From the NCBI RefSeq assembly GCF_009914755.1, contig NC_060942.1: a stretch of 64,000 nucleotides of DNA, one strand, 5' to 3'. Positions 17,731-21,229 of the stretch are shown here, piece by piece. The notes under the pieces are model-generated. The model made no database searches, had not been told where the DNA came from, and was given only the letters and a program-made list of their open reading frames with translations. The stretch comes from the human T2T-CHM13v2.0 reference genome, Homo sapiens. A program made the translations under genes and the position numbers. Each line of letters starts with the position of its first letter. The stretch's first letter is position 1.

Positions 17731-18747
17731 ATGGGGAAAAAACAGAACAGAAAAACTGGAAACTCTAAAACGCAGAGCGCCTCTCCTCCTCCAAAGGAAC
17801 GCAGTTCCTCACCAGCAACAGAACAAAGCTGGATGGAGAATGATTTTGACGAGCTGAGAGAAGAAGGCTTCAGACGATCAAATTACTCTGAGCTACGGGA
17901 GGACATTCAAACCAAAGGCAAAGAAGTTGAAAACTTTGAAAAAAATTTAGAAGAATGTATAACTAGAATAACCAATACAGAGAAGTGCTTAAAGGAGCTG
18001 ATGGAGCTGAAAACCAAGGCTCGAGAACTACGTGAAGAATGCAGAAGCCTCAGGAGCCGATGCAATCAACTGGAAGAAAGGGTATCAGCAATGGAAGATG
18101 AAATGAATGAAATGAAGCGAGAAGGGAAGTTTAGAGAAAAAAGAATAAAAAGAAATGAGCAAAGCCTCCAAGAAATATGGGACTATGTGAAAAGACCAAA
18201 TCTACGTCTGATTGGTGTACCTGAAAGTGATGTGGAGAATGGAACCAAGTTGGAAAACACTCTGCAGGATATTATCCAGGAGAACTTCCCCAATCTAGCA
18301 AGGCAGGCCAACGTTCAGATTCAGGAAATACAGAGAACGCCACAAAGATACTCCTTGAGAAGAGCAACTCCAAGACACATAATTGTCAGATTCACCAAAG
18401 TTGAAATGAAGGAAAAAATGTTAAGGGCAGCCAGAGAGAAAGGTCGGGTTACCCTCAAAGGAAAGCCCATCAGACTAACAGCGGATCTCTCGGCAGAAAC
18501 CCTACAAGCCAGAAGAGAGTGGGGGCCAATATTCAACGTTCTTAAAGAAAAGAATTTTCAACCCAGAATTTCATATCCAGCCAAACTAAGCTTCATAAGT
18601 GAAGGAGAAATAAAATACTTTATAGACAAGCAAATGCTGAGAGATTTTGTCACCACCAGGCCTGCCCTAAAAGAGCTCCTGAAGGAAGCGCTAAACATGG
18701 AAAGGAACAACCGGTACCAGCTGCTGCAAAATCATGCCAAAATGTAA
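17731..18747 (+). CDS. ORF1: LINE-1 ORF1p, 338 aa, full length (coiled coil, RRM, CTD)
   Basis: MGKKQNRK...NHAKM; REKG, ARR and YPAKLS motifs intact; apparent differences from recalled L1HS are D112N, S209L, I270V and P331L. Confidence 0.95.
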   Translation: MGKKQNRKTGNSKTQSASPPPKERSSSPATEQSWMENDFDELREEGFRRSNYSELREDIQTKGKEVENFEKNLEECITRITNTEKCLKELMELKTKARELREECRSLRSRCNQLEERVSAMEDEMNEMKREGKFREKRIKRNEQSLQEIWDYVKRPNLRLIGVPESDVENGTKLENTLQDIIQENFPNLARQANVQIQEIQRTPQRYSLRRATPRHIIVRFTKVEMKEKMLRAAREKGRVTLKGKPIRLTADLSAETLQARREWGPIFNVLKEKNFQPRISYPAKLSFISEGEIKYFIDKQMLRDFVTTRPALKELLKEALNMERNNRYQLLQNHAKM

Positions 18748-18810
18748 AGACCATTGAGACTAGGAAGAAACTGCATCAACTAATGAGCAAAATCACCAGC
18801 TAACATCATA

Positions 18811-20145
18811 ATGACAGGATCAAATTCACACATAACAATATTAACTTTAAATATAAATGGACTAAATTCTGCAATTAAAAGACACAGACTGGCAAGTTGG
18901 ATAAAGAGTCAAGACCCATCAGTGTGCTGTATTCAGGAAACCCATCTCACGTGCAGAGACACACATAGGCTCAAAATAAAAGGATGGAGGAAGATCTACC
19001 AAGCCAATGGAAAACAAAAAAAGGCAGGGGTTGCAATCCTAGTCTCTGATAAAACAGACTTTAAACCAACAAGGATCAAAAGAGACAAAGAAGGCCATTA
19101 CATAATGGTAAAGGGATCAATTCAACAAGAGGAGCTAACTATCCTAAATATTTATGCACCCAACACAGGAGCACCCAGATTCATAAAGCAAGTCCTCAGT
19201 GACCTACAAAGAGACTTAGACTCCCACACATTAATAATGGGAGACTTTAACACCCCACTGTCAACATTAGACAGATCAACGAGACAGAAAGTCAACAAGG
19301 ATACCCAGGAATTGAACTCAGCTCTGCACCAAGCAGACCTAATAGACATCTACAGAACTCTCCACCCCAAATCAACAGAATATACATTTTTTTCAGCACC
19401 ACACCACACCTATTCCAAAATTGACCACATACTTGGAAGTAAAGCTCTCCTCAGCAAATGTAAAAGAACAGAAATTATAACAAACTATCTCTCAGACCAC
19501 AGTGCAATCAAACTAGAACTCAGGATTAAGAATCTCACTCAAAGCCGCTCAACTACATGGAAACTGAACAACCTGCTCCTGAATGACTACTGGGTACATA
19601 ACGAAATGAAGGCAGAAATAAAGATGTTCTTTGAAACCAACGAGAACAAAGACACCACATACCAGAATCTCTGGGACGCATTCAAAGCAGTGTGTAGAGG
19701 GAAATTTATAGCACTAAATGCCTACAAGAGAAAGCAGGAAAGATCCAAAATTGACACCCTAACATCACAATTAAAAGAACTAGAAAAGCAAGAGCAAACA
19801 CATTCAAAAGCTAGCAGAAGGCAAGAAATAACTAAAATCAGAGCAGAACTGAAGGAAATAGAGACACAAAAAACCCTTCAAAAAATCAATGAATCCAGGA
19901 GCTGGTTTTTTGAAAGGATCAACAAAATTGATAGACCGCTAGCAAGACTAATAAAGAAAAAAAGAGAGAAGAATCAAATAGACACAATAAAAAATGATAA
20001 AGGGGATATCACCACCGATCCCACAGAAATACAAACTACCATCAGAGATATAGTTTGTTATAATTTCTGTTCTTTTACATTTGCTGAGGAGAGCTTTACT
20101 TCCAAGTATGTGGTCAATTTTGGAATAGGTGTGGTGTGGTGCTGA
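18811..20145 (+). CDS. ORF2: Truncated chimeric ORF2p: residues 1-412 (APE endonuclease plus linker) and 32 aa from antisense host L1; no RT
   Basis: N14, E43, D145, D205 and SDH230 are present; L1 sequence ends at QTTIR, followed by DIVCYNF...GVVWC. Confidence 0.85.
20045..20059. repeat. Right target-site duplication GAGATATAGTTTGTT; its first 4 nt are shared with the inserted L1 end
   Basis: ATCA-GAGA-TATAGTTTGTT-ATAATTTC. Confidence 0.9.
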
Positions 20146-20727
20146 AAAAAATGTGTATTCCGTTGATTTGGGGTGAAGAGTTCTGTAGATGTCTATTAGG
20201 TCTGCTTGGTGCAGAGCTGAGTTCAATTCCTGGGTATCCTTGTTGACTTTCTGTCTCGTTGATCTGTCTAATGTTGACAGTGGGGTGTTAAAGTCTCCCA
20301 TTATTAATGTGTGGGAGTCTAAGTCTCTTTGTAGGTCACTCAGGATTTGCTTTATGAATCTGGGTGCTCCTGTATTGGGTGCATATATATTTAGGATAGT
20401 TAGCTCTTCTTGTTGAATTGATCCCTTTACCATTATGTAATGGCCTTCTTTGTCTCTTTTGATCTTTGTTGGTTTAAAGTCTGTTTTATCAGAGACTAGG
20501 ATTGCAACCCCTGCCTTTTTTTGTTTTCCATTGGCTTGGTAGATCTTCCTCCATCCTTTTATTTTGAGCCTATGTGTGTCTCTGCATGTGAGATGAGTTT
20601 CCTGAATAGAGCACACTGATGGGTCTTGACTCTTTATCCAATTTGCCAGTCTGTGTCTTTTAATTGGAGCATTTAGTGCACTTACATTTAAAGTTAATAT
20701 TGTTATGTGTGAATTTGATCCTGTCAT
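20045..20727 (-). pseudogene. ORF2: Host L1 ORF2 5' portion (endonuclease codons 1 to about 228); lacks H230 and has no L1 promoter
   Basis: [16 protein letters not shown]...TNYIS, then the frame runs into the antisense strand of the insert until 19948. Confidence 0.88.
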
Positions 20728-20790
20728 TATGATGTTAGCTGGTTATTTTGCTCGTTAGTTGATGCAGTTTCTTCCTAGTCTCAATGGTCT

Positions 20791-21229
20791 TTACATTTTG
20801 GCATGATTTTGCAGTGGCTGGTACTGGTTTTTCCTTTCCATGTTTAGTGCTTCCTTCAGGAGCTCTTTTAGGGCAGGCCTGGTGGTGACAAAATCTCTCA
20901 GCATTTGCTTGTCTGTAAAGTATTTTATTTCTCCTTCACTTATGAAGCTTAGTTTGGCTGGATATGAAATTCTGGGTTGAAAATTCTTTTCTTTAAGAAT
21001 GTTGAATATTGGCCCCCACTCTCTTCTGGCTTGTAGAGTTTCTGCCAAGAGATCCGCTGTTAGTCTGATGGGCTTCCCTTTGTGGGTAACCCGACTTTTC
21101 TCTCTGGCTGCCCTTAACATTTTTTCTTTCATTTCAACTTTGGTGAATCTGACAATTATGTGTCTTGGAGTTGCTCTTCTCGAGGAGTATCTTTGTGGTG
21201 TTCTCTGTATTTCCTGAATCTGAATGTTG
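20791..21229 (-). pseudogene. ORF1: Host L1 ORF1 C-terminal fragment, 5'-truncated
   Basis: ...MKEKMLRAAREK...QNHAKM; truncation at the TSD starting 21230. Confidence 0.9.

What the first reader, a model, noticed from the sequence alone, without database searches (positions are those of the whole stretch)
18309..21229. Natural L1 hairpin cassette: a 1185-bp inverted repeat downstream of an intact L1 promoter
Seen: insert 18309-19493 and host 20045-21229 cover the same L1 interval (ORF1 C-terminal part to the end of the endonuclease) in opposite orientation, 1185 bp each, around a 551-nt loop. The loop region (19479-20048) is itself complementary to host 16257-16825. The insert has lost its terminal poly(A) signal. 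Inference: read-through from the 5' UTR would fold into about 1.2 kb of highly paired dsRNA, like an RNAi hairpin aimed at active L1 ORF1/EN. It could be a substrate for ADAR1, Dicer or MDA5/PKR, and the DNA could be prone to inversion or cruciform formation. Internal AATAAA sites (e.g. 19986-19991) may limit read-through.
Basis: partly seen in the sequence, partly recalled or inferred. Interest (0 to 1): 0.75.

Follow-up and report, generated by a model that had tools for sequence, protein, structure and literature searches.

The report
Young L1 nested backwards in older L1
A young LINE-1 copy that kept its promoter but lacks its 3' half sits backwards inside an older LINE-1, so any transcript from that promoter would fold into a 1.2-kb double-stranded RNA; such inverted LINE pairs are a known class and nothing here shows this one is expressed.

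Summary
Window 18309-19493 and 20045-21229 are an ungapped 1185-bp inverted repeat with 37 mismatches (96.9%), separated by 551 nt. A second inverted repeat of 568 bp (97.2%) joins 19479-20046 to 16259-16825.

An older 5'-truncated L1 lies on the - strand (13420-21229, own 9-11-bp target-site duplication). It was later split by a young L1 on the + strand (16826-20044/48). The insert starts at the normal L1 5' end. It has a 905-nt 5' UTR, an intact 338-codon ORF1 and 412 open ORF2 codons. It stops there with no poly(A) tail and carries a 15-bp target-site duplication.

The arms come from two L1 families. Of the 37 mismatches, 10 are family differences, 12 are private to the host, 5 are private to the insert and 10 are mixed.

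The insert most likely arose by twin-priming-like internal priming at a 4-nt microhomology.

No poly(A) hexamer lies in the 3' arm, and the predicted RNA pairs 1166 of 1185 positions. Expression, editing and sensing could not be tested. Long, highly paired inverted-LINE duplexes are already catalogued (2,018 genome-wide). I file it as a new member of a known kind, of modest interest.

The parts
13420..16825 (-). Host L1, 3' piece: ORF2 from about codon 222 to the 3' UTR and a poly(A) tail with a TAA-type microsatellite. ORF2 is broken into several ORFs.
   Evidence: AT skew. ORFs of 262, 102, 390 and 286 aa, with RVT_1 in the 390-aa piece. 3' end and tail read.
20045..21229 (-). Host L1, 5' piece, which is the 3' arm of the inverted repeat: end of ORF1 (last 113 codons open) and ORF2 codons 1-227. 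The host is 5'-truncated at 21229.
   Evidence: Tnp_22_dsRBD and Exo_endo_phos. 217 of 227 residues identical to solved L1 endonuclease 1vyb, counted from the alignment.
13411..13419 (.). Outer target-site duplication of the host L1, left copy (TAGGCCTTC, possibly plus TT). The right copy is at 21230-21238.
   Evidence: Read. The nick 7-mer TTCTT/AT has 2 mismatches to TTTTT/AA.
16811..16825 (.). Inner target-site duplication, left copy (GAGATATAGTTTGTT).
20045..20059 (.). Inner target-site duplication, right copy. Its first 4 nt (GAGA, 20045-20048) are also what the L1 family has at this point, so they are a microhomology.
   Evidence: 28 of 29 young L1 copies continue GAGAATACTACA after the last insert-specific 20-mer.
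16826..20044 (+). Inserted young L1: complete at the 5' end, 3'-truncated in ORF2 codon 412, no poly(A).
   Evidence: 99.19-99.38% identical over 3219 nt to 29 other full-length copies of the same genome. 16 private differences.
16826..17730 (+). 5' UTR (internal promoter) of the insert: 905 nt, GC 0.58, 38 CpG. The AAGATGGCCG box is at 16837-16846.
   Evidence: CpG count is 38 against a median of 39 (range 36-41) in 29 young copies. The first private difference is at 16974. RefSeq enhancer 16568-17152 overlaps it (hub annotation).
17731..18747 (+). ORF1 of the insert, intact, 338 codons.
   Evidence: Tnp_22_trimer, Transposase_22 and Tnp_22_dsRBD. Matches solved human ORF1p 2yko at E 9e-141.
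18811..20145 (+). ORF2 of the insert: 412 L1 codons (whole endonuclease domain and part of the linker), then 32 codons read from host antisense DNA to a stop.
   Evidence: 409 of 412 residues identical to solved ORF2p 8uw3. Exo_endo_phos at 11-230.
18309..19493 (+). 5' arm of the 1185-bp inverted repeat (within the insert).
19494..20044 (+). Loop of 551 nt (insert ORF2 codons 228-412). Together with 19479-19493 it is complementary to host 16259-16825.
16259..16825 (-). Host partner of the second inverted repeat. It lies upstream of the insert's transcription start, so it is absent from an RNA started at the insert's own promoter.
20038..20065 (+). Unique insert/host junction, usable as an RNA or DNA tag.

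Best explanation
Two separate retrotransposition events produced the structure. First, an L1 of an older primate family inserted on the - strand in the ordinary way: 5'-truncated, with a poly(A) tail and a 9-11-bp target-site duplication. Later, a young, human-type L1 RNA was copied into the endonuclease-coding part of that element in the opposite orientation. This second insertion is non-canonical. It reaches the RNA's 5' end but starts inside ORF2 (codon 412). It has no poly(A) and is flanked by a 15-bp target-site duplication.

The most likely route is a twin-priming-type event. The L1 endonuclease nicked the T-rich + strand at TTGTT/AT. The cDNA that was kept, however, was primed from the second nick on the other strand. 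That primer annealed by 4 nt (TCTC to GAGA) inside the RNA and was extended to the cap.

The inverted repeat is a by-product of this nesting and need not be an evolved device. It has one conditional consequence. The insert has a complete, CpG-rich promoter and no 3' end of its own. Any transcript that passes the internal A-rich sites must therefore run into the antisense host arm and can fold into a stem of about 1.19 kb. In that stem 1166 of 1185 positions pair, and the longest uninterrupted helices are 209 and 206 bp.

The anatomy, the two-family origin and the predicted fold are shown. The priming route, the transcription and the fate of the RNA are inferred. The most likely fate is nuclear A-to-I editing or decay.
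For: Anatomy: AT skew flips at 16826 and 20045, and GC peaks over 16750-17750. Junctions were read. ORFs come, Pfam domains and PDB identities.

Two events, two families: the insert is 99.19-99.38% identical to 29 other copies, which are 99.50% (median) identical to each other. The host arm is 96.71-97.22% identical to those same copies, and 97.5-98.0% identical to 12 of its own 39 best-scoring relatives elsewhere in the genome. Of the 37 arm mismatches, 10 separate the young copies plus insert from the old copies plus host, 12 are private to the host, 5 are private to the insert and 10 are mixed. The insert keeps more CpGs (10 against 6 in the arms).

Non-canonical insertion: the target-site duplication matches 15 of 15. 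There is no A-run at 20040-20060. The GAGA overlap is confirmed in 28 of 29 young copies. The 5' boundary coincides with that of full-length copies.

Nick quality: the + strand 7-mer TTGTT/AT has 2 mismatches to TTTTT/AA, and 5.6% of host positions on that strand are as good or better. It equals the host's own canonical nick TTCTT/AT. The - strand 7-mer ATCTC/AG has 4 mismatches, and 25.8% of positions are as good or better.

Precedent: Meyer et al. 2010 (PMC2837659, Results read) describe 39 inverted, 3'-truncated L1s with target-site duplications. [quoted passage not shown] They are explained as twin priming with a very short non-inverted part.

Hairpin: the MFE is -2248.3 kcal/mol, against -540.5 for a control with the 3' arm turned round. 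Pairing is 1166 of 1185 in register, with 18 G-U pairs. The next + strand hexamers after 19986 are ATTAAA at 22563 and 24159 and AATAAA at 25340.
Against: Which nick came first is only weakly resolved. With the 5-mer TTTT/A the two nicks score 1 and 2 mismatches, with backgrounds of 5.8% and 8.9%. The 7-mer comparison gives roughly a 4.6-fold preference, not a proof.

The locus lacks the 14-39-nt poly(T) that defines the Meyer et al. loci, and none of their loci reached the L1 5' end. This case therefore extends their model rather than fitting it.

No tool here shows that the promoter fires. The window has no annotated gene. Six AATAAA and two ATTAAA hexamers lie in the sense L1 before the 3' arm, as in every L1, and may stop many transcripts.

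The young reference panel was chosen as the best matches to the insert, and the old panel as 12 of the top hits to the host. Both are biased towards little-mutated copies. Only 40 of 9310 and 40 of 4779 candidates were scored.
Confidence: 0.7

Rival explanations
1. Single internal priming. The first-strand nick was on the - strand at ATCTC/AG. Its 3' end annealed to GAGA inside the L1 RNA instead of to the poly(A) tail. One cDNA was made, up to the cap. The TTGTT/AT nick was the second-strand cleavage.
For: It needs only one unusual step. The 4-nt microhomology lies at exactly this junction. By the 5-mer measure the two nicks are about equally unusual. No poly(T) remnant of a first cDNA exists.
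Against: The - strand 7-mer has 4 of 7 mismatches to the endonuclease consensus, and 25.8% of positions are as good. The + strand nick has 2 of 7 (5.6%) and equals the host's own canonical nick. Published internal-priming cases, as I recall them, use A-rich internal sites and T-rich primers, which is not the case here.
Confidence: 0.25
2. An ordinary full-length + strand insertion with a poly(A) tail, followed by a later deletion of L1 position about 3223 to the end of the tail between two GAGA microhomologies.
For: GAGA occurs both in the L1 at the truncation point and at the start of the target-site duplication. A microhomology-mediated deletion is therefore formally possible.
Against: The right end of the deletion would have to fall exactly on the first base of the target-site duplication. 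The nick needed for a canonical + strand insertion is the poor one (4 of 7 mismatches). Both copies of the target-site duplication are intact (15 of 15).
Confidence: 0.04
3. Endonuclease-independent capture of an L1 RNA fragment at a pre-existing DNA break (non-classical L1 insertion).
For: The 3' truncation, the absence of poly(A) and the microhomology are three of the features listed by Sen et al. 2007 (PMC1920257, passages).
Against: Those loci are defined by the absence of target-site duplications, and 18 of 21 had target-site deletions. Sen et al. rejected every locus with a target-site duplication. Here there is a clean 15-bp duplication, no deletion, and one nick close to the endonuclease motif.
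Confidence: 0.04
4. The locus is a working hairpin cassette whose RNA is made and acts through ADAR1, Dicer, MDA5 or PKR against L1, or as an alarm when L1 promoters are derepressed.
For: The promoter is complete and has kept its CpGs (38 against a median of 39). Read-through is obligatory. The predicted stem is very stable, with helices of up to 209 bp. A RefSeq enhancer feature overlaps the first 327 nt of the 5' UTR (hub annotation). HUSH loss raises L1 RNA and MDA5/RIG-I signalling (PMC7609715, abstract in the search listing).
Against: There are no expression, editing or small-RNA data. [quoted passage not shown] Barak et al. 2020 find such structures depleted or barely expressed (abstract and passages). 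The structure is fully explained as a by-product of nesting. The next poly(A) hexamers are 1.3-4 kb beyond the stem, so export to the cytoplasm is doubtful.
Confidence: 0.07
5. The arms are an inverted segmental duplication of one L1 made in a single event, or an assembly artefact.
For: Both inverted repeats have nearly the same identity (96.9% and 97.2%).
Against: 10 of 37 mismatches are fixed differences between two L1 families. The host lacks L1 positions 1-1483, which the insert has. A 15-bp target-site duplication bounds the insert. The insert's reading frames are intact while the host's ORF2 is in pieces. The 3% divergence between the arms rules out a collapsed or mirrored assembly.
Confidence: 0.01

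Closest known systems
Twin-priming variants with a very short non-inverted part (Meyer, Srikanta, Conlin and Batzer 2010, Mob DNA 1:7, PMC2837659)
   Same: The L1 lies inverted relative to the endonuclease-like nick, is 3'-truncated and is bounded by a target-site duplication. Theirs are 7-20 bp with a mean of 14; this one is 15 bp. Microhomology covers the first 4 positions of the 3' junction and none is seen at the other junction.
   Different: Their loci were found through, and are defined by, a 14-39-nt poly(T) between the 5' target-site duplication and the L1; this locus has none. None of their 39 loci reaches the L1 5' end, and their L1 parts average about 615 bp (maximum 2399 bp). This one is 3219 bp and complete at the 5' end, with promoter and ORF1 intact.
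Classical twin priming / 5' inversion (Ostertag and Kazazian 2001; rates in PMC12016303: 165 of 897 germline L1 insertions)
   Same: An inverted cDNA is primed internally from the second-strand nick and a target-site duplication is present.
   Different: The poly(A)-primed, non-inverted segment that normally makes up the 3' part of the insertion is entirely missing.
Long, highly paired intramolecular dsRNA candidates formed by inverted LINE pairs (dsRNAscan preprint PMC11838218; Barak et al. 2020, PMC7006430)
   Same: The stem is over 300 bp, over 96% paired, intergenic and made of two inverted LINE copies. The locus probably belongs to the 2,018 such structures reported.
   Different: One arm carries its own complete L1 promoter and lacks any L1 3' end, so read-through into the other arm is built in. 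I could not check whether the locus is in their Table S5, which is not held.
Non-classical, endonuclease-independent L1 insertions (Sen et al. 2007, PMC1920257)
   Same: 3' truncation, no poly(A), microhomology at a junction.
   Different: This locus has a 15-bp target-site duplication and no target deletion. That study excluded all loci with target-site duplications.
Retrotransposition-incompetent L1 loci able to express endonuclease-containing ORF2 fragments (Kines et al. 2014, PMC4176336; search listing and start of abstract only)
   Same: Full promoter and ORF1, with an ORF2 that ends after an intact endonuclease domain.
   Different: Here ORF2 ends through physical truncation of the element and reads 32 codons into foreign DNA, rather than through a premature stop mutation.

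Membership tests
LINE-1 element of the youngest human-type family (the insert) | 5' UTR starting at the family's canonical 5' end | tested here: met
   The start coincides with the boundary between L1 and unique flank in 28 of 29 young full-length copies. The UTR is 905 nt.
LINE-1 element of the youngest human-type family (the insert) | ORF1 with trimerisation, RRM-like and C-terminal domains | tested here: met
   338 codons, open. Three Pfam domains at E 4e-31 to 8e-65.
LINE-1 element of the youngest human-type family (the insert) | Near identity to other young copies | tested here: met
   99.19-99.38% to 29 copies whose median pairwise identity is 99.50%. Subfamily names (L1HS, L1PA2) could not be assigned by a tool. 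The 3' UTR diagnostic triplet is absent with the 3' half.
LINE-1 element of the youngest human-type family (the insert) | Complete ORF2 (reverse transcriptase, C-terminal domain), 3' UTR and poly(A) | tested here: not met
   The element ends in ORF2 codon 412 and has no A-run. It is a truncated copy, not an autonomous element.
Twin-priming variant of Meyer et al. 2010 | Target-site duplication flanking an L1 that is 3'-truncated | tested here: met
   15 of 15 nt.
Twin-priming variant of Meyer et al. 2010 | [quoted passage not shown] | tested here: inconclusive
   2 against 4 mismatches of 7 (backgrounds 5.6% and 25.8%), but 1 against 2 of 5 (5.8% and 8.9%).
Twin-priming variant of Meyer et al. 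2010 | Microhomology at the 3' junction | tested here: met
   GAGA, 4 nt.
Twin-priming variant of Meyer et al. 2010 | Poly(T) stretch between the 5' target-site duplication and the L1 | tested here: not met
   The target-site duplication is followed directly by the L1 5' end. The locus works like this family but is not a member as defined.
Endonuclease-independent (non-classical) L1 insertion | Absence of target-site duplications, usually with a target deletion | tested here: not met
   A 15-bp duplication is present and no base of the host L1 is missing at the site.
Long, highly paired dsRNA-forming inverted repeat (over 300 bp, over 96%) | Length and pairing thresholds | tested here: met
   1185 bp at 96.88% identity. 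98.4% of positions are paired in the predicted RNA, including 18 G-U pairs.
Long, highly paired dsRNA-forming inverted repeat (over 300 bp, over 96%) | Both arms present in one RNA molecule in cells, with editing or dsRNA evidence | not testable with these tools
Hairpin-RNA / endo-siRNA locus | Small RNAs of 21-22 nt mapping to both arms | not testable with these tools
   No small-RNA data are available.

The most novel reading that the evidence does not exclude
The locus is one of very few long, MDA5-grade intramolecular duplexes in the human genome that carries its own methylation-sensitive promoter and cannot terminate before the second arm. It could act as a built-in tripwire. When L1 promoters lose repression, it would deliver a 1.2-kb L1 ORF1/endonuclease duplex that is edited by ADAR1, sensed by MDA5 or PKR, or diced into L1-directed small RNAs. 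Its mode of insertion, an inverted cDNA primed only from the second nick and copied to the cap, would define a tail-less class of L1 insertion. Both published screens excluded that class by design, one by requiring poly(T) and the other by rejecting target-site duplications.
Probability: 0.07. Interest if true: 0.75.

Novelty: new member of a known kind. Interest (0 to 1): 0.35.

Why it matters
If the RNA is made, the 37 arm-specific differences and the unique junction make this one of the rare repeat-derived duplexes that can be followed unambiguously in RNA-seq, editing and dsRNA-pulldown data. It would be a clean reporter for what happens to a long L1 duplex when L1 promoters are derepressed.

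Separately, the insertion shows that the second-nick (inverted) cDNA of twin priming can be copied to the RNA's 5' end and be integrated alone. This yields a promoter- and ORF1-competent L1 without reverse transcriptase. A census of such copies would test how the two priming events of L1 integration are coupled.

If the RNA is not made, the locus is simply one more nested L1 pair.

Tried and rejected

I looked for a third copy of this L1 segment in the window to serve as an outgroup and found none. I used copies from the same genome instead.

Premature polyadenylation of the source RNA is rejected. The nearest AATAAA starts at 19986, about 58 nt before the junction, and there is no A-tail at the junction.

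Gene conversion between the arms is rejected. Mismatches are spread along the arms, and the longest perfect run is 164 bp.

I tried to check whether the locus is in the published list of long, highly paired dsRNAs. Table S5 of PMC11838218 is not among the held supplement text, so this stays open.

Twelve short stretches were then fetched.

No structure prediction, complex prediction or large protein database search was run. The proteins are known families and those runs would not bear on the question.

Literature searches for a described tail-less, 5'-complete, target-site-duplication-flanked inverted L1 found Meyer 2010 and Sen 2007 as the nearest. I saw no description of exactly this form, but I did not read every listed paper and subscription journals are not covered.
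Full report
OBSERVATION

The repeat finder reports arms 18309-19496 and 20042-21229 (1188 nt, 97% complementary, 545 nt apart). It reports a second pair at 16276-16825 and 19479-20028 (550 nt, 97%).

blastn of the + strand L1 against the two flanking - strand pieces gives two alignments:
- 1185 bp with 37 mismatches and no gap (96.88%);
- 568 bp with 15 mismatches and one gap (97.18%), which is window 19479-20046 against 16825-16259.

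The 37 mismatches are 27 transitions and 10 transversions. Perfect runs reach 164 bp. In the whole window only these two inverted pairs are long and highly similar. The remaining 3 of 5 pairs are 180-299 nt at 79-84%. The quoted junction string is at 20038-20065.

ANATOMY

AT skew is negative up to about 16750, positive from there to about 20000, and negative again afterwards. GC peaks at 0.55-0.58 over 16750-17750. So there is an antisense L1, then a sense L1 that begins with a GC-rich 5' UTR, then an antisense L1 again.

The host L1 lies on the - strand:
- It ends in a poly(A) tail at 13420 onwards and is 5'-truncated at 21229.
- It is flanked by TAGGCCTTC (plus possibly TT) at 13411-13419 and 21230-21238.
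- Its nick 7-mer TTCTT/AT has 2 mismatches to TTTTT/AA, so it is an ordinary insertion.
- Its ORF2 downstream of the insert is split into ORFs of 262, 102, 390 (RVT_1) and 286 aa.

The insert occupies 16826-20044/48 on the + strand:
- It begins where full-length copies of the family begin.
- It has a 905-nt 5' UTR and an intact 338-codon ORF1 at 17731-18747, with three L1 ORF1 Pfam domains. ORF1 matches solved human ORF1p at E 9e-141.
- The 63-nt spacer follows, and ORF2 starts at 18811.
- ORF2 is open for 412 L1 codons. By my count on the printed alignment, 409 of 412 residues are identical to solved human ORF2p 8uw3.
- ORF2 then reads 32 further codons from host antisense DNA to a stop at 20145.
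- No poly(A) follows the L1 sequence.
- The 15-mer GAGATATAGTTTGTT occurs at 16811-16825 and 20045-20059.
- Its first four bases, GAGA, are also what the L1 family carries at this point. After the last 20 insert-specific bases, 28 of 29 young copies continue GAGAATACTACA, as does the host's own homologous stretch.

TWO FAMILIES, TWO EVENTS

The assembly that holds the window can be searched.

The insert (3219 nt) matches 39 other full-length copies at 99%. Only 40 of 9310 candidates were scored. Exact identities to the 29 fetched copies are 99.19-99.38%. Those copies are 99.16-99.97% identical to each other, with a median of 99.50%.

The insert has 16 positions at which it differs from at least 90% of the other 29. 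The panel members have 0-13 such positions, with a median of 5. That is 0.5% private divergence.

The host arm is 96.71-97.22% identical to the young copies. It is 97.5-98.0% identical to 12 of its own 39 best-scoring relatives elsewhere in the genome. Only 40 of 4779 candidates were scored, and I fetched 12 of the top hits.

The 37 arm mismatches classify as follows:

| Class | Count |
|---|---|
| Young copies agree with the insert, old copies agree with the host (family differences) | 10 |
| Private to the host | 12 |
| Private to the insert | 5 |
| Mixed | 10 |

The mixed sites are mostly sites that vary within the old family. One of them (19489) lies outside the fetched stretches.

At the protein level the host endonuclease is 217 of 227 identical to 1vyb. 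The insert is 225 of 227 over the same residues (my counts). This excludes a single-event or duplicative origin of the arms and shows that the insert is the younger element.

Both panels were picked as best matches and are therefore biased towards little-mutated copies. Taking recalled neutral rates of about 0.1-0.17% per million years, the insert would be a few million years old and the host two to three times older. This is an estimate. Subfamily names could not be assigned by any tool.

HOW THE INSERT GOT THERE

An L1 that is complete at the 5' end but lacks its 3' half and tail cannot come from ordinary target-primed reverse transcription, which starts on the poly(A) tail.

The two nicks implied by the target-site duplication are TTGTT/AT on the + strand and ATCTC/AG on the - strand. 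Against TTTTT/AA they score as follows:

| Nick | Mismatches of 7 | Host positions on that strand as good or better |
|---|---|---|
| + strand, TTGTT/AT | 2 | 5.6% |
| - strand, ATCTC/AG | 4 | 25.8% |

With the shorter TTTT/A measure the contrast is weaker: 1 mismatch (5.8%) against 2 (8.9%).

The better endonuclease site thus lies on the strand that would give a - strand L1, yet the L1 is on the + strand. That is the signature reported by Meyer et al. 2010 for 39 primate loci (PMC2837659, Results read in full). Those loci have the following features:
- inverted, 3'-truncated L1s with target-site duplications of 7-20 bp;
- significant microhomology at positions 1-4 of the 3' junction.

They explain these loci as twin priming in which the poly(A)-primed cDNA never left the tail.

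The present locus differs in two ways. It has no poly(T) at all, and the inverted cDNA ran to the 5' end of the RNA. Their set contained no full-length 5' ends.

Sen et al. 2007 (PMC1920257, passages) define endonuclease-independent insertions by 3' truncation, no tail, no target-site duplication and divergence from the endonuclease motif. They discarded every locus with a target-site duplication. A locus such as this one is therefore excluded by both screens.

My preferred reading, at roughly even odds, is that the retained cDNA was primed from the second nick by the 4-nt TCTC/GAGA match and copied to the cap.

The main rival (about 0.25) is a single internal priming event at the poorer nick. 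Two further routes are unlikely:
- A later deletion of a canonical insertion would need one deletion end to fall exactly on the first base of the target-site duplication.
- Capture at a pre-existing break does not fit the clean 15-bp duplication.

THE HAIRPIN

On the + strand, the sense L1 carries AATAAA at 18144, 18609, 18975, 19617, 19950 and 19986, and ATTAAA at 18874 and 19770. These are sites native to L1. After 19986 the next hexamers are ATTAAA at 22563 and 24159 and AATAAA at 25340. The 3' arm therefore contains none.

The 5' UTR keeps 38 CpGs, against 36-41 (median 39) in the 29 young copies. Its first private difference is at 16974, L1 position 149. The AAGATGGCCG box is at 16837-16846; I recall this box as the YY1 site. 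The hub's table places a RefSeq enhancer feature at 16568-17152, across the host/insert junction. By inference, this suggests the junction also exists in the reference on which that feature was defined.

Folding 18309-21229 as RNA gives -2248.3 kcal/mol. A control with the 3' arm turned round gives -540.5 kcal/mol. In the fold, 1166 of 1185 positions pair in register, 18 of them as G-U. They form 20 helices, the longest being 209, 206 and 164 bp.

The second inverted repeat partner (16259-16825) lies upstream of the insert's start site. It would be in the same RNA only in transcripts that come from elsewhere, and the two helices would cross as a pseudoknot.

All of this is prediction. No expression, editing, dsRNA or small-RNA data can be reached from here.

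WHAT IS KNOWN

- The dsRNAscan preprint (PMC11838218, section 10 read) finds 2,018 predicted human duplexes longer than 300 bp and more than 96% paired. Most are between inverted LINEs, 88% are intergenic and 74% are unedited. The authors attribute the lack of editing to lack of transcription.
- Barak et al. 2020 (PMC7006430, abstract and passages) show that long, nearly perfect duplexes are purged from or barely expressed in transcripts, and that some are heavily edited.
- A genome-wide pairing of repeats within 3 kb found 795,058 inverted pairs, of which 750,004 are Alu (10.1101/2023.05.19.541456, methods passage).
- L1-in-L1 nesting is common. Of 90 L1Hs insertions missed by short reads, 73 lie in reference L1 sequence (PMC7026601, abstract).
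- Among 897 germline L1 polymorphisms, 90.7% had a detected tail, 69.5% a target-site duplication and 18.4% a 5' inversion (PMC12016303, table passage).
- Endonuclease-containing ORF2 fragments from incompetent loci have been discussed as a source of DNA damage (PMC4176336, search listing only).

The hairpin is thus a member of a described class. Its particular features are its own complete promoter and built-in read-through. I could not check whether it is listed in Table S5 of the preprint, which is not held.

VERDICT

The structure is best read as the by-product of an unusual, tail-less, inverted L1 insertion into an older L1. The dsRNA consequence is conditional and untested. It is a new member of a known kind. 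Interest is 0.35, mostly for the insertion mechanism and for the locus's value as a uniquely mappable test case.

Noticed in passing
window 16225-17013, - strand: A 262-codon ORF starts at an ATG in the antisense strand of the insert's 5' UTR (L1 position 188). It runs out of the insert and continues in frame into the host's ORF2 sense sequence. Transcripts from the L1 antisense promoter (recalled to start further inside the 5' UTR) would carry it and could end at the host's own poly(A) signal near 13448.
   Followed up: partly
window 18811-20145, + strand: The insert's truncated ORF2 encodes a complete endonuclease domain (2 differences in 227 residues from the solved structure) plus linker residues to 412 and a 32-residue foreign tail. 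Together with the intact ORF1 this is a promoter-bearing L1 without reverse transcriptase.
   Followed up: partly
window 13420-13470: The host L1's tail is a TAA-type microsatellite followed by interrupted A-runs, rather than a plain poly(A).
   Followed up: no
window about 21320-21440 and onward: About 90 bp beyond the host's 5' end, sequence resembling the antisense 3' end of a still older L1 begins. NCBI masks 21434-25673 in pieces. The region may therefore be a three-level nest.
   Followed up: no
window 25352-25652 against 36360-36658, 52992-53171 and 63701-63935: Three further inverted pairs of 180-299 nt at 79-84%, 10-38 kb apart. They are of Alu-like size.
   Followed up: no
L007-L035 (G000 loci): The 5' ends of 28 young full-length L1 copies differ in the number and arrangement of G residues just before the AGGAGCC start. 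The exact first base of the insert is therefore uncertain by a few G.
   Followed up: partly
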